Below are positions 11,680 through 30,176 of a stretch of 64,000 nucleotides of DNA, piece by piece (positions within the stretch are counted from its first letter, which is position 1; every line of letters begins with the position of its first letter). The translations under genes and the position numbers were made by a program. Source of the DNA: a virus; the IMG/VR virus record IMGVR_UViG_3300031450_000090; one strand, 5' to 3'. Under the pieces are notes generated by a model. It was not told where the DNA came from. It was given only the letters and a program-made list of their open reading frames with translations, and did not search any database.

Positions 11680-12106
11680 GATCCCGGCCTCCGCCGCTGC
11701 CGATAACCCGGCTTCCCGGAAGCTATCCGCCCCGATCGAGGCGGCGCTCACCGAGCTGATCGGCGTCGCCCTGGAAGCGGTCGGGACGCACGATCCCCAC
11801 CTGGCGGACGCGCTCGCCGCCGTCCGCGCGGCGGTCGCGCGCGAGGTTCTTCCTGCTGAGATGACGCCCGAGATTGGCGAGGTCCTCGGCCTTATGAACT
11901 TCCGAACGGGCCCGCTCGCGCACCTGTTCCGTGCTGCCGGTGCCGACATCCCGACGAAGTGCGAGGCGGAGCAGGCCTTCGTGCTGTTCCGCTTCATGCA
12001 CCTCGCCCTGCAGCACGGTGCCGGATGGCGCGAGGCGTCCATCGTCGACGTTCAGGCAGCCCTCGCGATCGCGAAGACCAAGCTACCGGCCGAGCCGGCG
12101 TCATGA
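11666..12106 (+). CDS. Hypothetical protein carrying the D-N-x-x-S-R-K site near its N-terminus
   Basis: GGAGG RBS; contains the 28-bp element at 11696. Confidence 0.7.
   Translation: MSRSEIPASAAADNPASRKLSAPIEAALTELIGVALEAVGTHDPHLADALAAVRAAVAREVLPAEMTPEIGEVLGLMNFRTGPLAHLFRAAGADIPTKCEAEQAFVLFRFMHLALQHGAGWREASIVDVQAALAIAKTKLPAEPAS
11696..11723 (+). repeat. dif/lox-like 28-bp element, copy a
   Basis: GCTGCCGATAA-CCCGGC-TTCCCGGAAGC. Confidence 0.85.
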
Positions 12107-12915
12107 GCGCCCTGGCTCCCTCACCCGCGCCCCGCGCGCTGCGCGTGGACCCCGACCTGGTCGCGATTCTCGCCGCAGCGACGGTCGATGGGGACGCCCT
12201 CACGCTCGCGGAGACGCTCAGCTCCAACCTCTACCGGCGCGTCGACAACGTGCTCGTCGCCGCCGGCGGGCGCTGGGACCGCAAGAGGGCCGCGCATGTG
12301 TTCCCCAGCGGCGACGCGGCGGTCGCGATCGAGCCGATCCTGGTCGCCGGCACGCTGGTGTTGCCGCCCGACCTCGGCTGGTTCGCGACTCCCCCGGCGC
12401 TGGCGGCCGAGCTGGTGCGGCGCAGCGGCGCTCGCCCGGGTTCGCGCCTGCTCGAGCCGTCGGCCGGGGAGGGCGCCATCGTGCTGGCCGCCCTGGCGGC
12501 CGGTGCCCGGGTCGCGGCCATGGAACTCGACCTCCTCCGCTTCGCGAGCTTGTGCAAGCTGGCCGACGATCCTGCGCGGCTTCTCTGCCAGCAGGGCGAT
12601 TTCCTCGCGATGAACCTCCTGTCCAACTTCGAGCAGGTGGTCATGAACCCGCCGTTCGCGCCGCGGCGAACGGACGTCTTCCACGTTCGCCACGCCTTCG
12701 GTTCATTGTGCCCAGGCGGCCGCCTTGTGGCGGTGATGAGCGCCGGCACGTTGTTCCGCGCCGATCGGGAGACGGACGCCTTCCGCGACCTCGTCCACGG
12801 CCTCCGCGGCACGATCGAGCCGCTGCCGGACGACAGCTTTGCGGCCTCCGGCACGCATGTCCGGACCGTGGTGGTCACGGTCGACATGCCTCGAACAGCA
12901 GGGAGCATCCGATGA
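12103..12915 (+). CDS. Class I SAM-dependent N6-adenine DNA methyltransferase
   Basis: GWFATP, LEPSAGEG (motif I), VMNPPF (motif IV), GGRLVAVM. Confidence 0.85.
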   Translation: MSALAPSPAPRALRVDPDLVAILAAATVDGDALTLAETLSSNLYRRVDNVLVAAGGRWDRKRAAHVFPSGDAAVAIEPILVAGTLVLPPDLGWFATPPALAAELVRRSGARPGSRLLEPSAGEGAIVLAALAAGARVAAMELDLLRFASLCKLADDPARLLCQQGDFLAMNLLSNFEQVVMNPPFAPRRTDVFHVRHAFGSLCPGGRLVAVMSAGTLFRADRETDAFRDLVHGLRGTIEPLPDDSFAASGTHVRTVVVTVDMPRTAGSIR

Positions 12916-13169
12916 CTGAGCACCCAGGCCTGCCCGTCGCCGGCTATCGCCCGCAGAACGACGCCAAGGTCGCGACCGTCAACGTCAACAAAGAGCTTGA
13001 GGAACGCGTGCTCCGCCAGATCGACGCGATGGCGGCCGACATGGAAGCCGGCCACGATCCACGCATGATCGCCGTGGCGCGCACCGGCATCCAGGACGCC
13101 TTCATGTGGCTCAACAGGGCGGTGTTTCGGCCCGCCCGTGTCAGCTTGCCGGAGGACGCCGGGCGATGA
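12912..13169 (+). CDS. acb2: Acb2-like cyclic-oligonucleotide sponge (anti-CBASS family)
   Basis: 85 aa; GYR...N..KEL...D.R.+A+A+T.IQ..FMWLNRAV..P matches the remembered Acb2 pattern. Hidden as the tail of track ORF 11931..13169. Confidence 0.75.
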   Translation: MTEHPGLPVAGYRPQNDAKVATVNVNKELEERVLRQIDAMAADMEAGHDPRMIAVARTGIQDAFMWLNRAVFRPARVSLPEDAGR

Positions 13170-13516
13170 CCGGCAGCGCCCTCGTTTCAACCACGTTCAC
13201 CGTGCTCCGGGTCCTCGGTGGACCGAGGAAGCACACGATCGACCTGCCGCTCAACCCCGGGCTTGACGCGCTGCGCGCCGTGCTGAACCCGTTGCTCGAC
13301 GGCAAAAACTTCGAGCACGTCAGCGTGCTTAACGAGGGTCGGGCCGCCGACATGTTCGTCGACGAGACCGGTGCCTGTGACGGTCAGGTCCGCAACGACG
13401 CGGCGACCAAGATCTATCGGGCCGCGGAGCTGCGCCGCAACCCGAAGACCAACCCCGAGTCCCTTCCCGCCATCTACGGCACTGCGATCCTCGTCGACCG
13501 CCGGGTCTGGTCGTGA
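13166..13516 (+). CDS. DUF3846-like hypothetical protein
   Basis: MFVDETG...N..ATKIY...IYGTAIL pattern; ATG at 13166. Confidence 0.6.
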   Translation: MTGSALVSTTFTVLRVLGGPRKHTIDLPLNPGLDALRAVLNPLLDGKNFEHVSVLNEGRAADMFVDETGACDGQVRNDAATKIYRAAELRRNPKTNPESLPAIYGTAILVDRRVWS

Positions 13517-13749
13517 GGAGCGCCGCGATGCGCCAGCCCGAGCCGTGCCCCGAGTTCGACTGCACAAGCTGCGGCCGGACCATGATCGTGCTGGTCGGCG
13601 AAACGCCGAACCAGCCGCGCTGCCACCGCTGCCGCATGCTGCCCGGCTGGCACAAGAGGCCCGAGGTCGTCGCGCTGTGTAACCTCAACGGGCAGCTGCT
13701 CGCGCCGGTCGCCGCGGGCGCCGCTGAGAACGGGAGGACGCTGCAGTGA
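13513..13749 (+). CDS. Small zinc-finger protein
   Basis: CTSC...CHRC; GTGA overlaps. Confidence 0.6.
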   Translation: MRSAAMRQPEPCPEFDCTSCGRTMIVLVGETPNQPRCHRCRMLPGWHKRPEVVALCNLNGQLLAPVAAGAAENGRTLQ

Positions 13750-14411
13750 GCACATCCGATAAACTCCCTTCCCGGAAGCTTACGACCAACCAATCGCCAG
13801 GGCTGCTTTTCCTGGTCGCCGCCAAGGCGGCAATGCCGCGGACGCTGGGCAAGGCCGTGCGTGTCGCGGCCATGAACGACGTCCTGCGCCTCGCGATCGG
13901 GTGCCGCATGGTCTTCGGCCGCGGCGAGGGCGCTGGGCTGAGGCAGCTCGACTTGCAAACGTGTGCAGGGGTTTTCCGCACTCTCGATGAGCACTGGTAT
14001 ACCCAGGCCTGCCGCGTCGGCGGCACCTACGCGGCCATGTGGGAAGCCCACCACGGGTGCAAACCGTGGATCGCCCCGGACGTCATCGTCGGCCGCGACT
14101 CGCGTGACCAGGCTCGGGACAGTCGGGTGGCGCCCAACATGGCGCTGCTGCTGCCCAGCAGCGGCGACGACGATCCGGACCTGCCGCGTCACGGCAGCGC
14201 GTCCGAGGTCTGGTGGTGCACGTCGCTCGATCGCACCGCCGATACGATCACGCTGTGCCGGTACCGGCTCCTGCCCGACAAGCGCTGGCCGACGATCCGC
14301 GAGGGTCAGCCTCGGCGAAGATGCGTGCTCGATCGCTCGGCATGGGCCGAACTCTTCCGCAAGACCTCCACCAAACCCGCCGCAGCGGCCGAGTCGGGAA
14401 TCGCAGCATGA
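13746..14411 (+). CDS. Hypothetical protein starting MSTSDKLPSRK
   Basis: Coupled start; contains the 28-bp element at codons 3-12. Confidence 0.7.
   Translation: MSTSDKLPSRKLTTNQSPGLLFLVAAKAAMPRTLGKAVRVAAMNDVLRLAIGCRMVFGRGEGAGLRQLDLQTCAGVFRTLDEHWYTQACRVGGTYAAMWEAHHGCKPWIAPDVIVGRDSRDQARDSRVAPNMALLLPSSGDDDPDLPRHGSASEVWWCTSLDRTADTITLCRYRLLPDKRWPTIREGQPRRRCVLDRSAWAELFRKTSTKPAAAAESGIAA
13752..13779 (+). repeat. dif/lox-like element, copy b
   Basis: ACATCCGATAA-ACTCCC-TTCCCGGAAGC. Confidence 0.85.
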
Positions 14412-14812
14412 GCCATCAACCGAGCCACCCCGTCACGCCCGGTGGGCTCTCCGAGCAGGATCGCGATCGCGTCCATGCGCTCGCCGACAAGGGCTGGGGC
14501 TCGAGCCGGATCGCGCGCGCGATCTCGAAGCATCCGTCGACCGTCTACTGGTTCATGTGCTGTGATGGTCTGATTGCCGTGAGGCAGGTCGACCTCCCGA
14601 AAGTGTACGCCCGGGGCGGGCGCGTCGTCCGGCGGTTCGGCCGCGAGGAGGACGCCTTCATCGTCGCGCTCCGGCTGCAGGGCTATTCGGCGAGGGCGAT
14701 CGCTGAGCTCGCGTCCAAGCGCTTCGGCTACACGCGCCAACCGCACAGCGTGACGGTTCGGCTGGTGATGCTGGCTGCCCTCGACGACAACGGCCTGCAG
14801 GAGGCCGCATGA
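14408..14812 (+). CDS. Tandem-HTH DNA-binding protein
   Basis: KGWGSSRIARAISKHPSTVYW and QGYSARAIAELAS..HSVTVRL. Confidence 0.7.
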   Translation: MSHQPSHPVTPGGLSEQDRDRVHALADKGWGSSRIARAISKHPSTVYWFMCCDGLIAVRQVDLPKVYARGGRVVRRFGREEDAFIVALRLQGYSARAIAELASKRFGYTRQPHSVTVRLVMLAALDDNGLQEAA

Positions 14813-15414
14813 CTACCGATAAGCTTGCTTCCCGGAACCAACGCGTCCTCGGTACCGAGCTCGAAGGTTACTTCGACACGCGCGCGCATAAGGACGACAT
14901 CGCGGGGCCGTTCAACTTCCCGGCGCCCAAGTGGGAGACGACGTGGGCGGACAGAGAGCCCGCACGCGACTGTCTGATGCGGTGCACCCACTGCGGCTCC
15001 GTGCACCCGCGAGACCTCCTCGCAGCCGTCGAGGCCGGCGCACGCCTTCGGGTCGCCGACATGAAATACGGCTGGCCGCATAAGTTCTATGTCAGCGGCG
15101 TGCCGAACGACCTGGCCGGCCAGCAAGTCATTGTCGGGGGTATCTCCGGCCCGACGACGGACAGGGCTGGGAGGCTTTGCCGCGACGACCTCACGCCCGA
15201 GGAAATCGCGAAGGGTCACTACAGCCGAGACACCTACGGCAAGGCTCCACCCGACGCTGTTGTGAAGTTCTACTCCGAACATCTCGCGGATGCAGACATG
15301 CAAACACCGGGGGGCGAGATGACTCAACTCGCCCGTCTAATGGCGGAAGCTTCGGGCTACGTCTTCGAAGTTCGTGAAGATTACCGGGTCTATTACAGGC
15401 GGGTGCACACATGA
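14809..15414 (+). CDS. Hypothetical phage protein starting MTTDKLASRN (CxHCGS motif)
   Basis: ATGA-coupled; contains element copy c. Confidence 0.7.
   Translation: MTTDKLASRNQRVLGTELEGYFDTRAHKDDIAGPFNFPAPKWETTWADREPARDCLMRCTHCGSVHPRDLLAAVEAGARLRVADMKYGWPHKFYVSGVPNDLAGQQVIVGGISGPTTDRAGRLCRDDLTPEEIAKGHYSRDTYGKAPPDAVVKFYSEHLADADMQTPGGEMTQLARLMAEASGYVFEVREDYRVYYRRVHT
14812..14839 (+). repeat. dif/lox-like element, copy c
   Basis: ACTACCGATAA-GCTTGC-TTCCCGGAACC. Confidence 0.85.
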
Positions 15415-16010
15415 CCGCTTCCGATAAGAGTTCTTCCCGGAAGCAATCCGTCAACGAGCCGGCGATCGTCGTCGACCTCGGACATGGTCGTTGGACAATC
15501 GACCGCGGGTCCCATGAGGGACATGAGGCGCTCTTCTTCGAGCCGGCACCGGCGCCTGGCCCCTCCATGCAGCCGGCGCCCCACTTCGCTCCGCTCGACA
15601 TGATGCAGCCGGGGACGGTCTGCATCCGCTTCGACAGGCCGGAGGCCATGACCTTCCTGCGGTGGTGGCTGGCCTACGTGCAGGATCCTGAGAACACCCC
15701 TGCCAGCCCGGGGGACTTCCGGCCCATCCAGCAGTCAGCAGAGATCGGAACGCCCGCCGCTCGGTGGCGCGCCGAGGGCCGGCCCGACCCGCACGGCGAT
15801 CGCTACGAATGCGACCGCACCAAGCTCTGCATGGGTTACCTCACGGACGATGAACTCGCGAACGCCGTGTTCGTGCACAACCACAGCAACTTCGATCTTA
15901 GCGCCATCGTGATGTCCATCGCCCTCCTGACGGCCGCGAAGGATCGCATACGCTGGTTCTCGCGCCAGCTGGAGGCGGCCAAGTGCGCCGCCGTGGCGGA
16001 GGCAGACTGA
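15411..16010 (+). CDS. Hypothetical phage protein starting MTASDKSSSRK, probably two domains
   Basis: C-terminal WRAEGRPDPHG..Y.C.R..L.MG.LTDDELANAVF motif recalled from phage hypotheticals; contains element copy d. Confidence 0.7.
   Translation: MTASDKSSSRKQSVNEPAIVVDLGHGRWTIDRGSHEGHEALFFEPAPAPGPSMQPAPHFAPLDMMQPGTVCIRFDRPEAMTFLRWWLAYVQDPENTPASPGDFRPIQQSAEIGTPAARWRAEGRPDPHGDRYECDRTKLCMGYLTDDELANAVFVHNHSNFDLSAIVMSIALLTAAKDRIRWFSRQLEAAKCAAVAEAD
15417..15444 (+). repeat. dif/lox-like element, copy d
   Basis: GCTTCCGATAA-GAGTTC-TTCCCGGAAGC. Confidence 0.9.
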
Positions 16011-16312
16011 TGCCGAGGATCACGATCAGCTTCGAGTTAAGCGCGACCAGCGCTCTCGTGCTCACAGAGAGTGAGATGCGCGCCCTCGACGCTCTCACCG
16101 GCTATGGCGACGACGCTTTTCTGGAAGCTTTCAAGGAAAAGCTAGGCGCAGCCTACATCCGCGGCCACGAAGGCGGCCTCCGATCGTTTTTTGAAGCCGT
16201 CAGGCGAGACGTCCTGCCGGCTCTGCGCCTGGTCGACCAGGCCCGTCGCGACCTTCAGGAAGCTGACCGCCTTCGGCTCGAAGCTCGCCACCAGAAGGGA
16301 GCTGCAGCATGA
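16010..16312 (+). CDS. Hypothetical protein
   Basis: ATG at 16010 in a TGATG overlap. Confidence 0.65.
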   Translation: MPRITISFELSATSALVLTESEMRALDALTGYGDDAFLEAFKEKLGAAYIRGHEGGLRSFFEAVRRDVLPALRLVDQARRDLQEADRLRLEARHQKGAAA

Positions 16313-16548
16313 TCGCTTCCGATAAGTCCCCTTCCCGGAAGGAGCCCGAGTCCGAAGTGCTCGTCCAACTGCGCGCCGCCCGAGAGTGGCTGCAGGTCCT
16401 TATCGACGCGGGCAACATCGATCCCGAGGAAACCGTCTTCGCGGTCTCGGTCCGATCGGCCAAGGGCGAGGAGGAAAGGGCCACGGCCACCCTGGCGCAC
16501 TGTCTTGCGCAGATCGACGCCGCGATAGTGGGGGCTGCCCATGGCTGA
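16309..16548 (+). CDS. Hypothetical protein starting MIASDKSPSRK
   Basis: ATGA-coupled; contains element copy e. Confidence 0.65.
   Translation: MIASDKSPSRKEPESEVLVQLRAAREWLQVLIDAGNIDPEETVFAVSVRSAKGEEERATATLAHCLAQIDAAIVGAAHG
16315..16342 (+). repeat. dif/lox-like element, copy e
   Basis: GCTTCCGATAA-GTCCCC-TTCCCGGAAGG. Confidence 0.9.
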
Positions 16549-17605
16549 CGGCAGCAAGATCGAGTGGACCGACGCCACCTGGAATCCGGTCACCGGCTGT
16601 TCGGTGGTCTCGCCGGGGTGCACGAACTGCTACGCGATGCGACTCGCTGGGACGCGGATGCGCGGCCATGCCTCGCGTTTGGGGCTCACTGTCGAAACTA
16701 AGGCGGGCCCTGTTTGGAACGGGCTGGTGCGCTTCAACGAGGCGTGGCTCGACCAGCCGCTCCGGTGGAAGCGGCCGCGCCGGGTTTTCGTGTGCGCGCA
16801 CGGCGACCTGTTCCACGAGGGCGTGCCGAATGCCTGGCTCGATCGCGTGTTCGCCGTCATGGCGCTGGCGCCGCAGCACAGCTTCCAGGTGCTGACGAAG
16901 CGCGCGGCGCGGATGCGGGCCTATATCGACGGTCTTACTCGGCAGGAGTGGTGGAAGGCTCGTCTTGGAGAGGCGTCCGGCGCGGAGATGCGTCGCGGCG
17001 ATGGCACATTCCCGACGTGGCCTCTTTCTAACGTCTGGCTCGGCGTCTCGGCCGAGGATCAGCAGCGCGCCGACGAGCGCGTTCCGGACCTGCTGGCAAC
17101 GCCGTCGGCAGTGCGCTTCGCGTCGGCCGAGCCGCTGCTCGGGCCGATCGACTTCACCAAGCTTCAGACCTTCGGGGGCGGCCAGCTCGACGCACTGCGT
17201 GGGATGTGGGCCACGTATCCGATCGTCGAGAGGGATGGCAGAGCAGCCCTGCTGACCAAGGCGCTGGCACGGCTCGACCAGATCATCGTCGGCGGTGAAT
17301 CCGGCCCAGGTTCCCGGCCGATGCACCAGCAATGGGCCGGCAGCATCCGTGACCAGTGCGCGTCCGCCGCGGCCGCGTTCTTCTTCAAGCAATGGGGCGA
17401 ATGGCTCCCGGTGACGCTGTACGATATCGACGGCGGCCCCGAGGTCTTCGAGGCTGACGACGGGCGTCCGGAAGGGGCGTTCGCAGGTGTGCACGTCGCG
17501 ACGCGCGCGCTCGCCGGCCAGTGGTTTGCCTGTGTCGGCAAGGCCCGCGCCGGCCGCCTTCTTGACGGCCGCATCCACGACGCCATGCCGGGAGTCGCCG
17601 CGTGA
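16541..17605 (+). CDS. Phage Gp37/Gp68 family (DUF5131), radical-SAM-like
   Basis: SKIEWTDATWNPVTGC...PGCTNCYA, FVCAHGDLFHE, FQVLTKR, NVWLGVSAEDQ, SAEPLLG, IVGGESG, FFFKQWG. Confidence 0.9.
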   Translation: MADGSKIEWTDATWNPVTGCSVVSPGCTNCYAMRLAGTRMRGHASRLGLTVETKAGPVWNGLVRFNEAWLDQPLRWKRPRRVFVCAHGDLFHEGVPNAWLDRVFAVMALAPQHSFQVLTKRAARMRAYIDGLTRQEWWKARLGEASGAEMRRGDGTFPTWPLSNVWLGVSAEDQQRADERVPDLLATPSAVRFASAEPLLGPIDFTKLQTFGGGQLDALRGMWATYPIVERDGRAALLTKALARLDQIIVGGESGPGSRPMHQQWAGSIRDQCASAAAAFFFKQWGEWLPVTLYDIDGGPEVFEADDGRPEGAFAGVHVATRALAGQWFACVGKARAGRLLDGRIHDAMPGVAA

Positions 17606-18145
17606 GCGCGGTGCTGTCGCCCTGCGGGCGCTACCGCTACCGGCTCGACCGCTCCGTCGACCTCTTGGGCCGCGGCACCGTCGGCTTCTGCCTGCACAAC
17701 CCGTCGACGGCGGACGCTGACTGTCGACGACCCGACCACGACCCGCTGCATCGGCTTCGCCCGGGGGTTCGGTGCCGCGCGCCTCGTCATCGTCAATCCC
17801 TGGGCGGGTCGTGCCACGTGGTCACGCGACCTGTGGGCCATGGCCGAGCCGGTCGGGCCCGACAATTCCCGCCACATCGCCGAGGCTGCGGCCGAGATCG
17901 CCGTCTCGTGCGGCTTCATGGTGGTGGGATGGGGCGCCGTGACGCCGCCGTGGAGGCTGCAGGACGAGGTGGGCGACCGGCTCGCCTTCGTGGCCATGAT
18001 CTTGCGCGCCTCCGCCTGCCCGGTTCTCGCGCTCGGCGTCACCCGCGACGGCTCGCCCAGGCACCCCCTCTACGTCAGCCGCGACACCCGGCCGGTGCTG
18101 TGGCCGGCGCCTCGCCCCGAACCGAAGCAGGGGATCGCCGCATGA
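17602..18145 (+). pseudogene. DUF1643-family gene split by a +1 frameshift near 17722
   Basis: 5' part LSPCGRYRYRL...HNPSTADA. Removing one base restores DVDDPTTTRCIGFARGFG...VNPWA.RAT and joins the frame ending GWG...SPRHPLY. Confidence 0.75.
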
Positions 18146-18165
18146 TCCGCCAGGAGGATCCAGCC

Positions 18166-18378
18166 ATGCCTTCCGATAATCGTCCTTCTCGGAAGCCGCA
18201 AAGGGTCGAGGGTTGCAGTCCGGAGGTCGAGCACCTCTTCGCAGAGTATTGCGCTGCGGCACGGAAAGCCCAGGCCACCCAGATGCTGGCCGACGGCGTC
18301 GCGGCCGGTCAGGCGTGGGCCGCGTTCCTGAACGCCTTCACGGGCGTGCCGGCGCGGACAGAGGCGCTTCACGCATGA
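18166..18378 (+). CDS. Hypothetical protein starting MPSDNRPSRK
   Basis: AGGAGG 8 nt upstream of ATG 18166; contains element copy f. Confidence 0.65.
   Translation: MPSDNRPSRKPQRVEGCSPEVEHLFAEYCAAARKAQATQMLADGVAAGQAWAAFLNAFTGVPARTEALHA
18169..18196 (+). repeat. dif/lox-like element, copy f
   Basis: CCTTCCGATAA-TCGTCC-TTCTCGGAAGC. Confidence 0.85.
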
Positions 18379-21730: not shown

Positions 21731-21760
21731 CTTTCGGCGCCGGCGCGTTATGTCTGATCG

Positions 21761-23851: not shown

Positions 23852-23882
23852 GGCGGGGCGTCCGGACCCAGTGGGTCGGTTT

Positions 23883-23911
23883 GGTTCCGGGAAGGGGGCA
23901 TTATCGGCAGA
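23883..23911 (-). repeat. dif/lox-like element, copy g (7-bp spacer)
   Basis: Minus strand TCTGCCGATAA-TGCCCCC-TTCCCGGAACC; its TAA is the stop codon of ORF 23901..24164. Confidence 0.8.
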
Positions 23912-24164: not shown

Positions 24165-24175
24165 AGCCCTGTTTC

Positions 24176-24203
24176 ACTTCCGGGAAGGCGCGTTATCGGA
24201 AGC
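24176..24203 (-). repeat. dif/lox-like element, copy h
   Basis: Minus strand GCTTCCGATAA-CGCGCC-TTCCCGGAAGT. Confidence 0.9.
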
Positions 24204-24225
24204 GAATCCCGCAGCGCAGCAGTGA

Positions 24226-24629: not shown

Positions 24630-24643
24630 CCCACTACCGGAGC

Positions 24644-24832: not shown

Positions 24833-24904
24833 GGGGTCGCCGTTCAGATTAGGACACTACCGACGTGAGGGCGCCCGTTCATCCCGTTCGTGGTATGTGC
24901 TCTT

Positions 24905-25303: not shown

Positions 25304-25926
25304 AGCCCACGGCCGTGGACCCGATCAACTCGTTCCAGCGCGACGACATGAGTCTTCGGGCGCGCCGGGTCCGCCGCGACATCCGCGGCCGCACGGCGGC
25401 CGTGAAGGGCAGGCGCCCCGACCTGCTCGGCCCCACGAAGGAGCGGTCGGAGAAGCCCGATCATCCGGTGAAGACCGCTGGCGGTTTCTACCGGGCACCG
25501 ATGCCGATCGAGCGCCTGCGTGACCAGAACAAACTCGACCCGCTCCCGCATTTGAACCAGGCGATGTACGAGGCCTCGGAAAAGCTGGTGGGCTATTATG
25601 AGGGCGCACGCCTGGTCGGCGTGAAGGCGCAGGATCTGACCCGGGTCAGCGGCGGCGGCGGCGACAATGACGCGCCGGACCGCGCCGAGCATTGCCGGGC
25701 CGAGTTCAGAAAAGCCTGCGTGCTCATGGGCTGGCCGTCGGCCTTTCCTCATCGCGGGGCAGGGCGGCTGACAGTGGCGGTGGTCTGCGAGGGCCACGGG
25801 GTCAAGCAGGCGGCCGACCTCTACCGGCCCGGTGGCTCCGACGCGGCGCGGCTCGGCGCCGGAATGGATGCGCTCCGCGAGGGGCTGTTCGCTCTCGCCG
25901 TGCATTGGCGTTTGGTGCGCGGCTGA
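25300..25926 (+). CDS. Putative late-gene regulator (DUF6456-like, Q-analog position)
   Basis: ATG 25300; C-terminal VAVVCEG.GV...LREGLFALAVHW; immediately upstream of a promoter-terminator pair. Confidence 0.6.
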   Translation: MKPTAVDPINSFQRDDMSLRARRVRRDIRGRTAAVKGRRPDLLGPTKERSEKPDHPVKTAGGFYRAPMPIERLRDQNKLDPLPHLNQAMYEASEKLVGYYEGARLVGVKAQDLTRVSGGGGDNDAPDRAEHCRAEFRKACVLMGWPSAFPHRGAGRLTVAVVCEGHGVKQAADLYRPGGSDAARLGAGMDALREGLFALAVHWRLVRG

Positions 25927-25935
25927 GTCCGGCCC

Positions 25936-25965
25936 TTGCACTTGGCACCGAGATCTGCCTATAAA
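25936..25965 (+). promoter_or_regulatory. Putative late (PR'-like) promoter
   Basis: TTGCAC-N18-TATAAA. Confidence 0.5.
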
Positions 25966-25985
25966 AGCCCATCGCACAGATTTGC

Positions 25986-26018
25986 GCCCGGAGCCGGAAA
26001 CGGTGATCCGGGCTTTTT
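25986..26018 (+). terminator. Rho-independent terminator (tR'-like)
   Basis: GCCCGGA-GCCG-GAAA-CGGT-GA-TCCGGGC then TTTTT. Confidence 0.7.
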
Positions 26019-26038
26019 CGTCTCTTGAGGGTCGCGAT

Positions 26039-26293
26039 GTGAGCCCTGCCGACGAACTCGCGACCGAGATCCTCAAGATCCGTCGCGACGTGCAGCAGAT
26101 CGACGCGCTAAGCCGCACGCGACCGCACATCTTCGCCGAACAGAAAGACGCGCTGGCCAAGCGCCTCGATGGGGTCGCGACGAAGCTGCGCGTCACCTTC
26201 GGCGGCACGCCCACCCGGTACCGCACGGGCGCGATCGTGAGTGGCAAGGGGCGTCACGTCCAGGTCGAGCGCCGCAGGGCCGGGGCAGGATGA
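26039..26293 (+). CDS. Hypothetical protein
   Basis: GAGGG RBS, GTG 26039; helical. Confidence 0.55.
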   Translation: MSPADELATEILKIRRDVQQIDALSRTRPHIFAEQKDALAKRLDGVATKLRVTFGGTPTRYRTGAIVSGKGRHVQVERRRAGAG

Positions 26294-26451
26294 TCAAGAC
26301 CGAGCGCTTCGCCTATTTCGACAACGACTGCCAGCATCATGAGGTGCTGCAGATTTGGGCCAGGATTCCGGCCACCGGCGTGTGGATGATCGTCTCGACC
26401 CAGGCCGTGACGATCGACCCGAACCGTGTCCCGGTCTTCCCCACCCGCTAA
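26290..26451 (+). CDS. 53-aa hypothetical protein (below the ORF-track cutoff)
   Basis: ATGA overlap; MIKTERFAYFDNDCQHHEVLQIWARIPATGVWMIVSTQAVTIDPNRVPVFPTR. Confidence 0.5.
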   Translation: MIKTERFAYFDNDCQHHEVLQIWARIPATGVWMIVSTQAVTIDPNRVPVFPTR

Positions 26452-26473
26452 CCATGCTCCGGGAGGTCCCGCG

Positions 26474-26713
26474 ATGCGCCAACGCTCCGCGGTGCGGGAC
26501 TACGGCGCGCCGCCGCAGGCCGACGCTCCCGTGCCGGCGCAGCCGGTGCCGATCGTCTGGGTGCTGGCCCAGCTGACCCCGCACTTCGCGGTGCTCGGCG
26601 CCTCGCGCTGCTACTTTCGGCTGCGCGACGAGTTTCTCGACCTGTGCCGCACGGCCGATGCCGAGGGCCGCGTCGTGACCATGGCGCTGCTGCCAACGGA
26701 CCTCCTGCCGTAA
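26474..26713 (+). CDS. Hypothetical protein
   Basis: GGAGGT RBS, ATG 26474. Confidence 0.5.
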   Translation: MRQRSAVRDYGAPPQADAPVPAQPVPIVWVLAQLTPHFAVLGASRCYFRLRDEFLDLCRTADAEGRVVTMALLPTDLLP

Positions 26714-26722
26714 GATTTTCCC

Positions 26723-27703
26723 ATGCCCAACCTGCCGGCTCTCTGCGACAGCAGACCGATCGGCGGGAATGGCGTTGCGACCGCAGATTTCACGGATGTA
26801 CTGAAATCTGCGGTCGACTATGCCCGAGCCGAAACGTCGGAGGGTACGCGCCGCGCCTACGCCAGTGACTGGCGCGCCTTCGAGGCCTGGTGTGCCTCAG
26901 TGGCACAACAGCCGCTGCCGGCCTCCACGGCCGCCGTGGCGGGCTACCTGGCCCATATGGCCGACGCTGGCCTGAAGGCATCCACCATCAATCGCCGCGC
27001 CGCGGCCATCGCCTACCGGCACCGCCTGGCCAACCTGACGCCGCCGACCGGCGCCGAGAGCGTGAAAGCGGTGCAGCGCGGCATCCGCCGCACCATCGGC
27101 ACCCGGGTCGACCGCAAAGCGCCGGCGACCGCCAAGGCCATCAAGGCCATGGTGGCGGCGATCCCCGACACACTCGCCGGCCGGCGCGATCGCGCGCTGC
27201 TGCTGACCGGATTCGCGGCCGCGCTGCGGCGCTCCGAGCTCGTGGCGCTCGACGTCGACGACCTCGAGCGAACGCCGGACGGCCTCTTCGTCCACATCAG
27301 GCACTCGAAGACCGACCAGGAGGGCGCCGGCCACATCGTGGCGGTGCCGCGCGGCGGCAGGCTGAGGCCGGTTCACGCCGTCGAGGACTGGCTCGAGGCG
27401 GCCGGCATCACGACGGGCGCGGTGTTCCGGTCGATCGGCAAGGGCGGGACACTGAGCGGCAAGCGGTTGAGCGACCGCTCCGTCGCCGACATCGTCAAGC
27501 GCTGGGCCGCCGCCGCGAAGCTCGATCCGACGTTGTTCGCGGGGCACTCGCTGCGGGCCGGCTTCGTGACCTCGGCGCTTGAGGCCGGCGCCGACCCGCT
27601 GAAGGTGATGGACGTCACCCGGCACAGCCAGGTGCAGACCCTCAAGGGCTACGACCGCCGCGCCAAGGCCTTCAAGGACCACGCCGGCAAGGGATTCCTG
27701 TGA
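26723..27703 (+). CDS. Cre/TnpS-like tyrosine recombinase
   Basis: N-terminal SAM-like domain TRRAYASDW..FEAWC; catalytic R (LRRSEL), K (SKTDQ), HSLR, H/Y (HSQVQTLKGY). Lies mid-genome, not at a prophage end. Confidence 0.92.
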   Translation: MPNLPALCDSRPIGGNGVATADFTDVLKSAVDYARAETSEGTRRAYASDWRAFEAWCASVAQQPLPASTAAVAGYLAHMADAGLKASTINRRAAAIAYRHRLANLTPPTGAESVKAVQRGIRRTIGTRVDRKAPATAKAIKAMVAAIPDTLAGRRDRALLLTGFAAALRRSELVALDVDDLERTPDGLFVHIRHSKTDQEGAGHIVAVPRGGRLRPVHAVEDWLEAAGITTGAVFRSIGKGGTLSGKRLSDRSVADIVKRWAAAAKLDPTLFAGHSLRAGFVTSALEAGADPLKVMDVTRHSQVQTLKGYDRRAKAFKDHAGKGFL

Positions 27704-27942
27704 TGCAAGTTTCTGCGATACACGCATTGGCCAGCGCAGCCATGGGCCTGTGTGTTCCAGCTCCCGCCGACATGGTGCTGCCGTCCGCGCCGCGGCCGAC
27801 GCGCCGCACCGTGGCGGCCCTGCACCGCTCCATCGGGCGCTCGCGCTACAGCGGTGCCCATACCCGCGCCATCCAGGCCGACCCACATCGCCAGGAATGC
27901 GTCCGTCGACGCCGGCAGGCGGCCCAGCGCGTAGCGGCCTGA
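27700..27942 (+). CDS. Hypothetical protein
   Basis: Overlapping start; weak support. Confidence 0.4.
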   Translation: MMQVSAIHALASAAMGLCVPAPADMVLPSAPRPTRRTVAALHRSIGRSRYSGAHTRAIQADPHRQECVRRRRQAAQRVAA

Positions 27943-27946
27943 GGCC

Positions 27947-28081
27947 GTGCGATCCGTCCTGCTGTGCGCCGCTATCTGGATCGGCGCGAGCGGGGCGGCC
28001 GCGATCGGCATGATGGAGGCCGGCCGCATCCTCTCCGACGCGATCGGCGCCGTCCTGGCCGCCACCGTCTTGGGCTTCTGA
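27947..28081 (+). CDS. 44-aa hydrophobic peptide (below the track cutoff)
   Basis: GAGG, GTG; MRSVLLCAAIWIGASGAAAIGMMEAGRILSDAIGAVLAATVLGF; fills the gap between neighbours. Confidence 0.4.
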   Translation: MRSVLLCAAIWIGASGAAAIGMMEAGRILSDAIGAVLAATVLGF

Positions 28082-28083
28082 CC

Positions 28084-28596
28084 ATGGATTCCTCGCCCTG
28101 GATCGTGCGCCGCGGCCGTGCCGATGCGTGGCAGTACGTCTGGAAGGCAACGAGCGATGCGGCGGCCGTCGTGTGGACCGACCACGAGACAGAGGCGCAG
28201 CGCTTCGGGAGCAAGGCGTCTGCCCTGACCTTGGCGGAACGGATCGCGGCCGGCGGCACCGAGGTCGCGGTGTTCTCGCCGGAAGTCCCCGCGACGCCTG
28301 CCATCGGCAGCTTCGTGTGCAGCTTCACGTCGATCGAGGCCATCCGGTTCGACGGGACCCGCGAATCCGCCCTGGCGATCGCCGCCGCTTTCCCCGGCCG
28401 GGTCGGGCTCGACGTCGCCCAGGACGACGTGCTGCTGGCCCTGTCGCGTGACCCGCTGCTCGGCCGCGAGGCGCTGCGCCCGGTGCCGCCCGGTTCGTGG
28501 CTGGTGGCGCGCTACGGCCGCATGGGCCAGCTCGACCTCTTCACCGACCGCCACTTCCGGGTTCTGCACGAGCCCTATCCCACGAGCCTCGCATGA
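28084..28596 (+). CDS. Hypothetical protein
   Basis: ATG 28084; C-terminal IEAIRFDGT...PGSWLV motif recalled from phage proteins. Confidence 0.6.
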   Translation: MDSSPWIVRRGRADAWQYVWKATSDAAAVVWTDHETEAQRFGSKASALTLAERIAAGGTEVAVFSPEVPATPAIGSFVCSFTSIEAIRFDGTRESALAIAAAFPGRVGLDVAQDDVLLALSRDPLLGREALRPVPPGSWLVARYGRMGQLDLFTDRHFRVLHEPYPTSLA

Positions 28597-28943
28597 GCAC
28601 CGGAAGCGCCGTCAAGGCGATCAACCCCGCGGCCGCGTCGCCGTTCGCCAATTTCAGCAACGGCGCCCTGGCCGACGCCCTGGGCGACCTCGAGGCCACC
28701 ATCGAGCTGGCGCAGAAACGCCAGAAGCTGGCGCGCGACGAGATGACCCGTCGCCACGCCAATTGGCTCGACGGGACGCGCTTCAGCGTCGCCAAGGCCA
28801 CGCTCGACACCCATACGCTGGACGCCAAAGCCGTTCGGCTCGAGATGGGCGACGCCTGGTACGAGGCGCGCCAGAAGCCCGGCACCCGGACCACCTATAC
28901 GGTGACCGCAAAGCCGCTCGAGCAGCTCGGCGTTTCCGCGTGA
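28593..28943 (+). CDS. Hypothetical phage protein
   Basis: ATGA-coupled; coiled coil followed by beta-rich end. Confidence 0.65.
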   Translation: MSTGSAVKAINPAAASPFANFSNGALADALGDLEATIELAQKRQKLARDEMTRRHANWLDGTRFSVAKATLDTHTLDAKAVRLEMGDAWYEARQKPGTRTTYTVTAKPLEQLGVSA

Positions 28944-29197
28944 GCCTACGGTCGAGCCGCTGGCTGATCGAGCTGCGCGAGGGCTTGCGGCCGCAGGGCC
29001 TCTACCTGCATGCGTTCGACGACGGCGGGCAGGAATGGTCTTCCGACTGGGCCCGCGCGCTGCGCTTCGCCACCAAGCAGGACGCCGAGCGCTTCGGCTT
29101 CGACCACCTCGATCGCGACTTCGTCGCCTCCGAGCACATGGCCGTCGATTTGGTCGAGCATCCCGATCGCGAGGACGCGCTGGAAGACGCCTTCTGA
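28940..29197 (+). CDS. Hypothetical protein
   Basis: GTGA-coupled; WSSDWARALRFATKQDAE. Confidence 0.6.
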   Translation: MSLRSSRWLIELREGLRPQGLYLHAFDDGGQEWSSDWARALRFATKQDAERFGFDHLDRDFVASEHMAVDLVEHPDREDALEDAF

Positions 29198-29325
29198 ACC
29201 TACCCTCGTCCGACGAGACGGGGGCCTGGGCTGCGCAAACAGCCCGAGCCGCGAGCTCACAACTCGCATGACCTTGAGCCGGCCGCTCCCGCGGCCATCC
29301 CGCCACCGCACGTGCGGCCGGGTCG

Positions 29326-30117
29326 ATGAGCCTCAAGACCATGCAACAGATCGTTACTGCCCCGGCTCCGCCGGTCTCTCGGCCCGGCGACGTTTGGATG
29401 CTGGGTCGCCACACGCTCGTCTGCGGCGACTCGCGGGATGCCGCCATTGCGGCGCTGGCGCTCCGAGGCGCGGCACCGCAGCTGATGGTGACAGATCCGC
29501 CCTACGGCGTGAGCTACGACCCGGAATGGCGCGTCAGGGCGGCGCGGGCCGGCCTGCTCGGCAAAAGGATCGGCGCCGCCGCGATCGGCAAGGTCGCCAA
29601 CGACGATCGCGCCGACTGGCGCGACGCCTGGGCCCACTATCTGGGCGACGTCGCCTACGTGTGGCACGGCGCCCTCAACGGATGCATCGTTCGGACGAGC
29701 CTCGAAGCGACGGGCTTCCTGATCCGGTCGCAGATCATCTGGGACAAGGGCCGGCTGATCATCAGCCGCGGCCACTACCACTGGCGTCACGAGCCCTGCT
29801 GGTACGCGGTCCGCCGCGGCCGCACCGCCCACTGGGCCGGCGACCGCAAGCAGGTGACGGTGTGGCAGGTGCCGCACCGCCGCAGCGAGACCGGCCACAG
29901 CACGCAGAAGCCCATCGAGGTGATGCAGCGTCCGATGCTGAACCACACGCGGCCGGGTGACTCCGTCTACGACCCTTTCGTGGGCTCGGGCACGACGATC
30001 GTGGCGGCGGAGAGCATCGGGCGTGTTGTCCATGCGATCGAGATCGACCCCGTCTACGTCGACGTCGCGGTCCGCCGCTGGGAGAAGCTGACCGGACGCA
30101 CGGCCGAGAAAGCTTGA
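29326..30117 (+). CDS. Beta-class N4/N6 DNA methyltransferase
   Basis: LGRHTLVCGDS, VTDPPY, HSTQKP, YDPFVGSGTT, IEIDPVY. Confidence 0.92.
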   Translation: MSLKTMQQIVTAPAPPVSRPGDVWMLGRHTLVCGDSRDAAIAALALRGAAPQLMVTDPPYGVSYDPEWRVRAARAGLLGKRIGAAAIGKVANDDRADWRDAWAHYLGDVAYVWHGALNGCIVRTSLEATGFLIRSQIIWDKGRLIISRGHYHWRHEPCWYAVRRGRTAHWAGDRKQVTVWQVPHRRSETGHSTQKPIEVMQRPMLNHTRPGDSVYDPFVGSGTTIVAAESIGRVVHAIEIDPVYVDVAVRRWEKLTGRTAEKA

Positions 30118-30148
30118 AGGGGCGGGGTCACACCCGGGCCGCGGTTTG

Positions 30149-30176
30149 GCTTCCGGGAAGCACAGTTATCGGAAGT
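30149..30176 (-). repeat. dif/lox-like element, copy i (intergenic)
   Basis: Minus strand ACTTCCGATAA-CTGTGC-TTCCCGGAAGC. Confidence 0.9.

What the first reader, a model, noticed from the sequence alone, without database searches (positions are those of the whole stretch)
11696..30176. Nine dispersed dif/lox-like 28-bp sites, six fixed in-frame at accessory gene starts: candidate recombinase-site gene-cassette system
Seen: the element (n)CTkCCGATAA-N6-TTCCCGGAAGC occurs at 11696, 13752, 14812, 15417, 16315 and 18169 (+) and at 23883, 24176 and 30149 (-). The arms are an imperfect inverted repeat (CTTCCGATAA vs CTTCCGGGAA). Spacers all differ except the last C; copy g has 7 bp. The six + copies start 3-30 nt after the start codon of otherwise unrelated genes, always in the same frame, giving N-termini D-K/N-x-x-S-R-K. 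Conservation is at the DNA level: fixed GAT, TCC-CGG and a T-ending preceding codon in a GC3-rich genome, and copies also occur antisense or intergenic. Known: 11-6-11 geometry with a left arm ending ATAA is the architecture of tyrosine-recombinase sites (XerC arm of dif/pdif; loxP ACTTCGTATAA). Inference: the sites delimit modules of about 0.6-2.1 kb carrying a methyltransferase, Acb2, Gp37/68 and DUF1643. Exchange at a site would fuse any incoming module in-frame to a start codon already coupled to the upstream stop, giving an integron-like, expression-preserving cassette array for anti-defence and accessory genes, driven by the phage Cre-like recombinase (26723) or host Xer. Alternative: roadblock or repressor sites analogous to mycobacteriophage stoperators.
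Basis: partly seen in the sequence, partly recalled or inferred. Interest (0 to 1): 0.92.

Follow-up and report, generated by a model that had tools for sequence, protein, structure and literature searches.

The report
Lox-like crossover sites heading phage genes
A temperate phage from rock-dwelling bacteria carries nine copies of the target site of its own Cre-like recombinase, six of them built in frame into the first codons of accessory genes, and natural variants show genes swapped or deleted at these sites, which points to a built-in system for exchanging gene cassettes between related phages.

Summary
Nine copies of CTTCCGATAA-N6-TTCCCGGAAGC lie at the stated places, against none in shuffled sequence. 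All six plus-strand copies are in one reading frame, and five begin 4-8 nt after the start codon.

New evidence:
- **Cognate recombinase.** In about 20 unrelated loci, homologues (43-69% identity) of the window's Cre-like recombinase (26723-27703, catalytic residues intact) have one such site 50-350 nt upstream. The site arms change along with the enzyme. The host dif site is different.
- **Conserved spacers.** Four further phages carry the array. The spacers are unique within a genome. They recur in nearly the same order between genomes only 55-70% identical, while the genes beside them differ.
- **Natural recombinants.** An independent metagenome contig, 99.7-99.8% identical to the window, lacks exactly the gene between sites c and d. 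The joint lies inside the shared right arm and fuses c's start to d's body in frame. Its homology to the window begins at site b.
- **No RNA signal.** There is no Rfam match and no compensatory stem changes.

Best reading (about 0.55): lox-like crossover points for in-frame module exchange. Catalysis is untested. Short-homology recombination and a regulatory role remain open. This would be a new variant of the site-specific cassette systems (integrons, dif modules).

The parts
11696..11723 (+). Site a (spacer CCCGGC), in frame 31 nt after the ATG of gene a (11666-12106)
   Evidence: Gene a and its site are kept in G001, G006 and L284, with spacers CCCGGC, CCCTGC and CCCCGC.
13752..13779 (+). 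Site b (spacer ACTCCC), at codons 3-11 of gene b (13746-14411)
   Evidence: The same spacer occurs in G001, G006, L284 and L278 with unrelated flanks. Homology of variant contig L278 to the window starts at 13756, and that of L291 at 13752.
14812..14839 (+). Site c (spacer GCTTGC), at codons 2-10 of gene c (14809-15414)
   Evidence: It is the left end of the natural c/d deletion. Homology with G001 ends at 14840 and with L291 at 14816.
15417..15444 (+). Site d (spacer GAGTTC), at codons 3-11 of gene d (15411-16010)
   Evidence: It is the right end of the natural c/d deletion; the joint lies within the shared CTTCCCGGAA.
16315..16342 (+). Site e (spacer GTCCCC), at codons 3-11 of gene e (16309-16548)
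   Evidence: The identical spacer occurs in G001, G006, L284 and L278, followed by different genes.
18169..18196 (+). Site f (spacer TCGTCC), at codons 2-10 of the 70-aa gene f (18166-18378), just ahead of the primase
   Evidence: Related spacers (TCGTTC, ATCGTC) lie between b and c in G006, L284 and G001.
23883..23911 (-). Site g (7-nt spacer TGCCCCC); its TAA is the stop codon of the minus-strand ORF 23901-24164
   Evidence: Homology of L289 (93% identical) to the window ends at 23905, inside this site; beyond it L289 carries a different gene.
24176..24203 (-). Site h (spacer CGCGCC). It closes a 21-codon leader ORF and lies 11 nt before the ATG of ORF 23901-24164.
   Evidence: The same spacer occurs in G001 and G006. 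Contigs of runs X4-X6 show a joint starting at 24206.
30149..30176 (-). Site i (spacer CTGTGC), intergenic between the N6_N4 methylase gene (29326-30117) and ORF 30208-30750, upstream of the terminase genes. Probably the enzyme's primary site.
   Evidence: Single sites with CTGnCC spacers recur in other records: 2.2-3.0 kb from the recombinase gene in G001 and G005, in G003 and G002, and just upstream of the gene in Salinarimonas L030.
26723..27703 (+). Cre-like tyrosine recombinase (326 aa), the proposed enzyme for all nine sites
   Evidence: Pfam Phage_integrase plus SAM_1. Best solved relative is Cre at E 8e-14, against XerD at 2e-4. The residues aligned to Cre R173, K201, H289, R292 and Y324 are identical, and His stands at the W315 position. 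Homologues elsewhere have the site just upstream.
11666..18378 (+). Early-operon array: site-headed genes a-f interleaved with a methylase-like gene, Acb2, an HTH_38 gene, DUF5131 and DUF1643
   Evidence: Gene calls and precomputed Pfam hits for the near-identical contig L277 (window coordinate = L277 coordinate + 6308); Pfam scans.

Best explanation
The 28-bp elements are lox/dif-type core sites: two 11-bp arms around a 6-bp spacer. They are recognised by the phage's own Cre-like tyrosine recombinase (26723-27703).

One copy, site i, near the recombinase and packaging genes, is probably the enzyme's ordinary site for resolution or integration.

The others have been placed in frame in the first 10-12 codons of early accessory genes. 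There each site encodes a neutral tag, S/T-D-K/N-x-x-S-R-K. Each site has its own spacer.

Tyrosine recombinases work efficiently only on partner sites with matching spacers. The direct repeats within one genome therefore do not normally delete one another. A site can cross over with the same-numbered site of a co-infecting or resident relative.

Such a crossover joins everything to the left (the upstream gene, the overlapping stop/start, the ribosome site and the first codons) to everything on the right (the gene body and what follows). No reading frame or translational coupling is broken. Repeated over time, this shuffles accessory and anti-defence genes at single-gene resolution. Rare events between sites with different spacers delete or move single cassettes.

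Shown here: the sites and their geometry, the link between site and recombinase across genomes, the spacer pattern, and natural joints inside sites.

Inferred: that the recombinase catalyses these joints, that spacer matching governs the choice of partner, and that exchange is the selected function.
For: 1. Sites are real and non-random.

2. Enzyme. The catalytic residues are intact and the closest solved relative is Cre.

3. Site-enzyme link. Of the loci fetched by motif alone, 31 encode a homologue of this recombinase (43-93% identity). In about 20 of them the site lies 50-350 nt upstream in the same orientation, for example in Salinarimonas L030, a Xanthobacteraceae MAG (L055) and Sphingomonas L066.
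   - Loci fetched by protein alone show co-varying arms: GTGTCCG...CGGACAC beside a 61% homologue, and a symmetric CCGATAA-N6-TTATCGG beside 45-47% homologues.

4. Canonical dif-like sites in G006 and G007 (the presumed host dif) read TTCGCATAA-N6-TTATGGAAC, which is not this motif.

5. Spacers are site-specific and conserved.
   - G001 (84-95% nt identity in most shared blocks) has a, b, c, d, e and h identical, and i at 5 of 6.
   - G006 (64-71% nt identity) has a 5/6, b 6/6, c 5/6, e 6/6 and h 6/6, in nearly the same order.
   - L284 (gene a 55% aa identity) has a, b, TCGTTC and e.
   - Exact spacer matches exceed column-shuffled nulls, P 0.0008-0.007 per genome pair.

6. Genes behind the same site are unrelated between genomes.

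7. Natural recombinants.
   - Contig L278 comes from a different study. It is 99.7-99.8% identical to the window over 13756-14847 and 15418-17483 and lacks exactly 605 bp between sites c and d.
   - The joint lies in the shared 10-nt CTTCCCGGAA and yields an in-frame protein with c's tag on d's body. Ten nucleotides of identity is too short to cause a k=31 assembly chimera.
   - Its left part is only 87% identical to the window, and the switch falls at site b.
   - Other homology ends fall at 14840, 14816, 13752, 23905 and 24206, all within 4 nt of a site.
   - One contig found in both X4 and X5 matches the window only at roughly 30-nt islands covering sites a, c, d and e, in that order.

8. 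Not an RNA element. There is no Rfam hit. In 40 distinct copies every change in the would-be stem breaks a pair, and none is compensated.

9. Established knowledge: Cre recombines lox pairs with matching non-native spacers efficiently (abstract of PMC11260471).
Against: - No binding, cleavage or recombination has been measured.
- The c/d joint lies in 10 nt of identity, so replication slippage or short-homology recombination could produce it without the recombinase. It also involves two different spacers.
- Spacers are not inviolate. L291 (89% identical flanks) has ACTGTC at site b and no site at all after the HTH gene. The same gene sits behind GAGTTC in G001 and TCGTTC in G006.
- Assigning b, c, e and h as orthologous rests partly on the spacers themselves, so that argument is partly circular.
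- Several mosaic joints in the same region lie at gene boundaries without a site (11058, 12108, 12893, 16504, 21744). Sites are not the only places of exchange.
- Relatives with a 59-68% identical recombinase have one site or none and no array in the stretch fetched.
- About 48 of 60 strong copies elsewhere have no recombinase homologue in the fetched stretch. All 10 genes checked beside such copies were non-recombinase genes, mostly ordinary chromosomal ones.
Confidence: 0.55

Rival explanations
1. The sites are mainly regulatory. A protein binds the 5' ends of early genes to block transcription or translation initiation. That protein could be the recombinase acting as a DNA-binding protein, or another phage factor. 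This would work like the stoperators of Cluster A mycobacteriophages or the repeated operators of phiC31. Exchange at the sites would then be a by-product of having the same 28 bp at many gene starts, as with the PeSL cassettes of T4-type phages.
For: - The position relative to start codons is strict, and the a-f copies share one orientation with transcription.
- In other genomes the site sits over the 5' leader of the recombinase gene, a typical place for autoregulation.
- PeSLs show that regulatory repeats can drive shuffling (abstract of PMC2839356).
- The stoperator and phiC31 comparisons rest on my own knowledge and were not checked here.
Against: - A binding site read by one protein gives no reason for each copy to keep its own 6-nt spacer across genomes only 55-70% identical.
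- Copy i lies antisense between genes.
- The architecture and the co-varying arms are those of a recombinase core site.
- No separate candidate regulator tracks the sites.
Confidence: 0.2
2. The elements are passive linker sequences. A conserved gene-start module (ribosome site, start codon and tag) spread by duplication. General or phage-encoded homologous recombination, or replication slippage, uses the 28 bp as short homology. The recombinase acts only on site i, and perhaps on h.
For: - The c/d joint lies in 10 nt of identity.
- Joints also occur at gene boundaries without a site.
- Keeping the whole 28 bp, spacer included, would also favour short-homology exchange between same-numbered sites.
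Against: - The arms of all array copies match the recombinase-proximal sites of distant genomes position for position. Passive homology has no reason to keep this.
- Twenty-eight bp is at or below the length at which general recombination works efficiently (my own knowledge).
- Within a genome the copies share only 7-10 nt runs, yet all keep the protein-recognition positions.
Confidence: 0.15
3. The conserved feature is the peptide S/T-D-K/N-x-x-S-R-K, an N-terminal tag for targeting, stability or processing of early proteins.
For: All 24 checked early-array copies in seven sequences (W, G001, G006, L284, L291, L289, L278) are in the same frame. In 21 the start codon lies 3-4 codons upstream of GAT; in the copies heading gene a in W, G001 and L284 it lies 8-12 codons upstream.
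Against: - Codons are fixed against the genome's bias: GAT in nearly every copy, and AAA at site b in all six genomes that have it.
- Copies exist in antisense and intergenic positions, and upstream of recombinase genes where they are not translated.
- One reading frame is excluded anyway by the TAA inside the motif.
Confidence: 0.03

Closest known systems
Cre/loxP of phage P1 and its relatives (Vika/vox and others; PMC3553980)
   Same: A phage-encoded simple tyrosine recombinase with an N-terminal SAM-like domain. It is the best solved match (E 8e-14). The site is an inverted repeat around an asymmetric spacer and is usually encoded next to the gene. From my own knowledge, loxP was first seen as a hot spot of crossing-over in P1 crosses.
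   Different: The geometry is 11-6-11 rather than 13-8-13, and the arms are imperfect repeats (ATAA against GGAA next to the spacer). There are nine sites rather than one, each with its own spacer. Six are embedded in frame in gene starts, and none lies directly beside the recombinase gene in this phage.
Heterospecific lox sites used for recombinase-mediated cassette exchange (engineering practice; spacer matching in PMC11260471)
   Same: Several sites have identical arms and mutually different spacers on one molecule, so that only like-spacer partners should recombine. In-frame site scars are tolerated in proteins.
   Different: That arrangement is man-made. Here it would be natural, and spacer-dependent partner choice is inferred rather than measured.
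dif modules (pdif sites) of Acinetobacter plasmids (PMC13141974, PMC9947245)
   Same: Accessory-gene modules bounded by 11-6-11 Xer-type sites and shuffled between replicons.
   Different: dif modules use the host XerC/XerD enzymes, their sites alternate in orientation, they are intergenic, and they lie on plasmids. Here the element has its own Cre-like enzyme, the a-f sites are direct repeats inside coding starts of a phage operon, and the motif differs from the presumed host dif found in related assemblies.
Integrons (IntI, attI, attC)
   Same: A tyrosine recombinase, an array of promoterless accessory genes expressed from the platform, and cassette boundaries inside a conserved site.
   Different: There are no attC hairpin sites and no IntI-type enzyme. 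Against the NCBIfam Xer and integron-integrase models the recombinase scores 46-67 bits, far below their cut-offs of 220-335. The sites are double-stranded lox-like cores at the 5' end of genes, inside the ORF. Capture of free cassettes is not shown.
In-frame site-specific switches: Rin shufflons of Bifidobacterium prophages (PMC6109161), the R64 shufflon, and the Mycoplasma vsa/vpma loci (PMC2268961)
   Same: A tyrosine recombinase acts at short sites inside coding sequence, so that alternative gene parts are joined in frame to a fixed expression signal.
   Different: Those systems invert DNA within one genome to vary one protein, and all their sites are mutually compatible. Here each site heads its own expressed, unrelated gene, the sites are direct repeats with different spacers, and the exchanges seen are between genomes or are deletions.
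PeSL regulatory cassettes of T4-type phages (PMC2839356, PMC4122927)
   Same: Short repeats at the boundaries of non-essential early genes mark where related phages differ by insertion, deletion or replacement.
   Different: PeSLs are promoter-plus-terminator units between genes and recombine by homology. Here the repeat is a recombinase core site inside ORFs.

Membership tests
Tyrosine-recombinase core site (lox/dif type) | Two inverted arms of about 11-13 bp around an asymmetric central region of 6-8 bp | tested here: met
   The geometry is 11-6-11. The arms GCTTCCGATAA and GCTTCCGGGAA match at 9 of 11 positions, and information content is high across both arms and low in the spacer.
Tyrosine-recombinase core site (lox/dif type) | A cognate tyrosine recombinase with an intact catalytic R-K-H-R-H/W-Y set in the same element | tested here: met
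   ORF 26723-27703. The alignment to Cre shows identical residues at R173, K201, H289, R292 and Y324, with His at the W315 position.
Tyrosine-recombinase core site (lox/dif type) | Site and enzyme travel together across genomes, and the arms change with the enzyme | tested here: met
   In about 20 loci the site lies 50-350 nt upstream of a homologue. Co-varying or symmetric arms lie beside 45-61% identical homologues fetched by protein alone. Caveat: many copies elsewhere have no homologue in the stretch fetched.
Tyrosine-recombinase core site (lox/dif type) | Strand exchange at the spacer boundaries by the enzyme | not testable with these tools
   This needs biochemistry. The natural c/d joint keeps c's spacer and switches within the last spacer base plus right arm. 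That is compatible with exchange at the right-hand boundary, and also with microhomology.
Integron | IntI-type integrase, an attI site, and attC sites that fold as single-stranded hairpins at the 3' end of cassettes | tested here: not met
   The recombinase is closest to Cre and scores far below the NCBIfam cut-offs for the Xer and integron-integrase models. The sites are 28-bp duplex-type cores at the 5' ends of genes. No compensated stem changes were seen.
Xer/dif modules | Sites that are copies of the host dif, used by host XerC/XerD, alternating in orientation around modules | tested here: not met
   The canonical dif-like sites found in G006 and G007, taken as the host dif, read TTCGCATAA-N6-TTATGGAAC. 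Array sites a-f all point the same way.
Stoperator / repeated operator | Sites bound by the immunity repressor, placed between genes, and interchangeable in sequence | tested here: inconclusive
   Binding cannot be tested here. Against the operator reading: the sites lie inside ORFs, the architecture is palindromic, and spacers are conserved in a site-specific way. For it: the orientation with transcription is uniform.
Structured RNA element at the translation start | Base pairs kept through compensatory changes, or a match to a described family | tested here: not met
   There is no Rfam match at gathering score. In 40 distinct copies all variation in the 7 outer pairs breaks pairing, and no change occurs on both sides of a pair.

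The most novel reading that the evidence does not exclude
This would be a natural, multiplexed counterpart of engineered heterospecific lox sites. The phage gives each accessory-gene slot its own spacer 'address', written into a harmless N-terminal tag. Its Cre-like recombinase can then exchange slot contents only with the same slot of a related phage. The result would be ordered, in-frame, expression-preserving cassette exchange of anti-defence and other accessory genes, a dedicated evolvability device in a virus.
Probability: 0.4. Interest if true: 0.9.

Novelty: new variant of a known kind. Interest (0 to 1): 0.8.

Why it matters
Phage genomes are mosaics, and the long-standing question is how modules are swapped so cleanly at gene boundaries. 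The usual answers are random illegitimate recombination followed by selection, or short regulatory repeats.

Here the crossover points appear to be encoded. They are target sites of the phage's own recombinase, placed inside reading frames so that every exchange keeps translation signals intact, and they carry distinct spacers that would stop the genome deleting itself.

If confirmed, this would be:
- a third way, beside integrons and dif modules, in which site-specific recombination assembles accessory genes;
- the first such case in a phage early operon carrying anti-defence cargo (Acb2, methylases);
- a source of a compact 11-6-11 recombinase/site family, with a ready-made set of presumably non-cross-reacting spacers, that could be tested as a genome-engineering tool.

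The claim is directly testable with plasmid recombination assays.

Tried and rejected
- **RNA hairpin or translational operator.** Rejected: no Rfam hit and no compensatory changes.
- **Protein tag.** Rejected on codon evidence and on the untranslated copies.
- **Host dif or Xer target.** Rejected because canonical dif-like sites (the presumed host dif) in G006 and G007 differ.
- **Gut-metagenome hits (about 42% GC).** An identical 54-nt stretch recurs in about two dozen contigs. In the one contig checked (L162) it lies inside a plsX (FA_synthesis) gene, so it is most likely a chance match with no recombinase nearby.
- **Genome-collection hits.** Most of the 96 are at the number expected by chance for a 17-base pattern. 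Only those that extend the palindrome were used.
- **Nearby nucleotide relatives in the annotated phage collection.** None beyond the DUF5131 gene.
- **Sites at the ends of the provirus record (att-like halves).** None found.
- **More variant contigs through exact-protein look-ups.** Four look-ups returned only contigs with gene orders already seen. One search gave L289 and L290, and one search gave L291.
- **The X4/X5 'island' contig.** It could not be fetched because no exact protein from it is known.
- **Lichenihabitans G007.** It has three strong sites within 27 kb but no close recombinase homologue on that contig and no similarity to the window. Left unexplained.
- **Partition-type plasmid prophage idea.** The gene beyond the ParB-like ORF begins with a P-loop (Walker A) motif. 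It may match the DUF87 ATPase gene found in the same leftward cluster in relative L281, not an evident ParA; no family scan was run. The idea was dropped.

Full report
**1. Observation**

The motif CTKCCGATAA-N6-TTCCCGGAAGC, searched with up to three mismatches, occurs eight times in the window and never in 100 dinucleotide-preserving shuffles. A ninth copy, g, has a 7-nt spacer. A weight matrix built from 29 copies found nothing further in the window; 20 simple shuffles gave 0-1 hits each. The rest of the virus record was searched with the consensus at up to one mismatch and its last 4.5 kb with loose patterns; neither found more.

The window is a 68.6% GC provirus record from a rock metagenome. 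It has lambda-type terminase genes at 30976-33469. The motif-bearing relatives are Hyphomicrobiales such as Lichenihabitans, Salinarimonas and Methylobacterium.

The six plus-strand copies head genes 11666-12106, 13746-14411, 14809-15414, 15411-16010, 16309-16548 and 18166-18378. Gene calls on the near-identical contig L277 give the same boundaries. In every case GAT is a codon. The start codon lies 3-4 codons upstream, or 12 codons for copy a.

**2. What the element is: DNA, not RNA or peptide**

There is no Rfam match at gathering score. In 40 distinct copies from eight sequences (W, G001, G006, L284, L291, L289, L278, G007), every departure in the seven outer would-be base pairs breaks the pair; none is compensated. 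Two half-sites that are each conserved on their own are what a protein bound to duplex DNA predicts.

Codon use argues against a peptide motif. GAT is kept in nearly every copy, in a genome whose coding third positions are about 80-95% G+C. Site b keeps AAA in all six genomes that have it. Copies also occur in antisense and intergenic positions, and upstream of genes where they are not translated.

**3. Link to the recombinase**

ORF 26723-27703 is a 326-aa tyrosine recombinase. Its best solved relative is Cre, over the full length at E 8e-14, against XerD at 2e-4. The residues aligned to Cre R173, K201, H289, R292 and Y324 are identical, and His stands at W315.

I scanned the viral, genome and metagenome collections for the motif alone. 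I then asked which window proteins are encoded in the loci that came back. The recombinase stood out: 30 loci, against six at most for any other gene.

In about 20 of those loci the site lies 50-350 nt upstream of the homologue and points the same way. This holds over 43-69% identity and in different families.

Loci fetched by the protein alone gave an unbiased view:
- A 61% homologue has GTGTCCGATAA-N6-TTCCCGGACAC, with both outer arms changed together.
- Homologues at 45-47% have a symmetric CCGATAA-N6-TTATCGG.

Arms that change in step with the enzyme mark a cognate pair.

Canonical dif-like sites in two whole assemblies read TTCGCATAA-N6-TTATGGAAC. Taking these as the host dif, host Xer is not the natural candidate.

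One caveat applies. Of 60 distinct strong copies elsewhere, only 12 have a homologue in the fetched stretch. All 10 genes checked beside such copies were non-recombinase genes, mostly ordinary chromosomal ones. These copies may be chromosomal targets or prophage ends. I could not tell.

**4. Arrays in relatives, and the spacers**

Four further phages carry an array at gene starts:
- G001, an IMG/VR record, mostly 84-95% identical to the window in shared blocks;
- a prophage on contig C17 of assembly G006, 64-71% identical;
- contig L284, whose gene a is 55% identical in protein;
- contigs from other rock metagenomes.

Within a genome all spacers differ. Between genomes they recur in nearly the same order:

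| Site | Window | G001 | G006 | L284 |
|---|---|---|---|---|
| a | CCCGGC | CCCGGC | CCCTGC | CCCCGC |
| b | ACTCCC | ACTCCC | ACTCCC | ACTCCC |
| c | GCTTGC | GCTTGC | GCTTTC | - |
| d | GAGTTC | GAGTTC | - | - |
| e | GTCCCC | GTCCCC | GTCCCC | GTCCCC |
| h | CGCGCC | CGCGCC | CGCGCC | - |

A TCGT-type spacer occurs in all four genomes. It lies between b and c in three of them and after e in the window.

Exact matches exceed a null that shuffles spacer columns, with P between 0.0008 and 0.007 per genome pair. Spacers are C-rich, so matches at 5 of 6 positions are less telling.

The genes behind a given site are mostly unrelated between genomes. Only gene a is shared by the three genomes compared. 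One further gene is shared by G001 and G006, but it sits behind different spacers in the two.

A protein that reads only the arms gives no reason for each copy to keep its own spacer. A need for partner sites to match does. This is the known behaviour of Cre on lox pairs with matching spacers (abstract of PMC11260471).

Two limits apply. Assigning copies as orthologous rests partly on the spacers themselves. L291 also shows that a spacer can drift: ACTGTC at site b, beside flanks 89% identical to the window.

**5. Natural recombinants**

Laying contigs of four other rock-metagenome runs on 11000-30900 gave a 4818-bp contig that is essentially identical to the window over two stretches and jumps straight from site c to site d. 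I recovered the contig as L278 through an exact-protein look-up.

The junction reads as follows: c's start and left arm, c's spacer GCTTGC, the right arm, then d's downstream sequence. The switch lies within CTTCCCGGAA, the longest run the two sites share. That run is far shorter than the 30 nt needed to mislead a k=31 assembler, as I understand Logan's assemblies to be, so the molecule is real.

The same contig is only 87% identical to the window over the methylase-like gene and unrelated for the next 1 kb. It becomes 99.7% identical from the first base of the CCGATAA of site b. This is the signature of a recent single crossover between two lineages at site b.

Other homology ends also fall within 4 nt of a site:
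- G001 at 14840, the end of c; there the partner site has a different spacer;
- L291 at 13752 and 14816;
- L289 at 23905, inside g; beyond it an AAA_21/DUF4435 gene replaces the window's small ORF;
- contigs of runs X4-X6 at 24206, just after h.

One contig found in both X4 and X5 matches the window only at roughly 30-nt islands covering sites a, c, d and e, in that order.

Not every joint is at a site. Ends at 11058, 12108, 12893, 16504 and 21744 lie at gene boundaries that have none. The sites are preferred crossover points inside ORFs, not the only places of exchange.

**6. Mechanism proposed**

The recombinase recognises all nine sites. Site i has a CTGnCC spacer that recurs in other records, 2-3 kb from the recombinase gene in the relatives where the distance could be measured. 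It is probably the enzyme's ordinary site. The array copies act as addressed crossover points.

Different spacers would keep the direct repeats from deleting one another. Matching spacers would let same-slot sites of co-infecting or resident relatives recombine. Because each site lies just after a start codon that overlaps the previous stop, an exchange preserves translational coupling and costs only a short tag. Rare events between mismatched sites would give cassette loss, as in L278.

The steps that remain inferred are catalysis by this enzyme, control by the spacer, and selection for exchange.

**7. Rivals**

- A regulatory role with recombination as a by-product (about 0.2) fits the strict placement and the PeSL precedent. 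It does not explain the spacers.
- Passive short-homology linkers (about 0.15) fit the 10-nt joint. They do not explain why all copies keep the enzyme's recognition positions.
- A peptide tag (about 0.03) is contradicted by codon use and by the untranslated copies.

**8. Comparison and novelty**

The system works like a mixture of known things:
- Cre/loxP, for the enzyme and the type of site;
- engineered heterospecific lox sites, for the several incompatible spacers;
- dif modules and integrons, for accessory-gene modules bounded by recombinase sites;
- in-frame shufflons, for sites inside coding sequence.

It fails the defining tests for an integron and for a Xer/dif module.

My searches of the paper library gave no description of a phage with an array of its own recombinase's sites, each with a distinct spacer, built into gene starts. 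Earlier notes of this scan report phage cassette arrays run by Xer-type enzymes in other genomes. I did not test those, and they concern different sites and placement.

I rate this a new variant of a known kind and of high interest. The main uncertainty is the missing biochemistry.

Noticed in passing
window 12912-13169 (+): An 85-aa gene with a precomputed Pfam hit to Acb2_Tad1_hairpin (anti-CBASS sponge family). It lies in the a-to-b module. In variant contig L278 the genes after the methylase-like gene, Acb2 among them, are replaced by two unrelated genes.
   Followed up: partly
L289:8020-9917 (relative 93% identical to window 16504-23905): Homology to the window stops inside site g. Beyond it lies a 545-aa gene with AAA_21 and DUF4435 domains, an architecture seen in OLD- and PARIS-type defence proteins. 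It takes the place of the window's small g-h ORF.
   Followed up: partly
window 24176-24260 (-): A 21-codon ORF (start near 24238) runs through site h in the usual frame and stops at the TGA right after it. The next ATG (24164) follows 11 nt later. This may be a leader peptide or the remnant of a tagged gene start.
   Followed up: no
G006 contig C17, positions 62574-71914 (in /scratch/g6rc.fa: 48807-58126): The related prophage has five more sites beyond its tail genes, with spacers CAATCC, TTGCCC, CGGTCC, TGGCCC and GCCCCC. At least one heads a gene in frame. The window has nothing comparable at its right end.
   Followed up: partly
loci L137, L150, L177, L188, L215, L227 and about 40 others from soil and rock metagenomes: Single strong copies, many with the palindrome extended to tttGCTTCCG...CGGAAGCaaa, have no recombinase homologue in the fetched stretch. 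All 10 genes checked beside such copies (in 9 other loci as well as L177 and L188) were non-recombinase genes, among them ADH, an MFS transporter, a glycosyltransferase, DnaJ and an ABC binding protein. They may be chromosomal target sites.
   Followed up: partly
G007 (Lichenihabitans) contig C11: 133756, 150131, 160529: Three perfect sites point the same way within 27 kb and have different spacers. No close recombinase homologue is on that contig. One spacer (CAATCC) is identical to that of a site at the right end of the G006 prophage.
   Followed up: partly
L162:8047 and about two dozen other human-gut metagenome contigs: An identical 54-nt stretch holding a perfect copy of the motif recurs in these contigs. 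In L162 it lies inside a plsX (fatty acid synthesis) gene of a 42% GC gut bacterium, so it is most likely a chance match and a warning for motif-only searches.
   Followed up: yes
G006:C5:67173 and C48:21813; G007:C11:478458: Canonical dif-like sites (TTCGCATAAT-N5-TTATGGAAC). G006 has two, which suggests two replicons or a mixed bin.
   Followed up: no
L289:158-637: A DDE_3 transposase gene lies directly upstream of the DUF5131 gene in this close relative, where the window has gene e.
   Followed up: no
window 785-2722 (-) and 1-110 (-): A 645-aa ParB/HTH_ParB-like protein is followed, at the window's edge, by the start of a gene with a P-loop (Walker A) motif. A DUF87 ATPase gene lies in the same leftward cluster in relative L281. 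This is not an evident ParA-ParB partition pair.
   Followed up: partly
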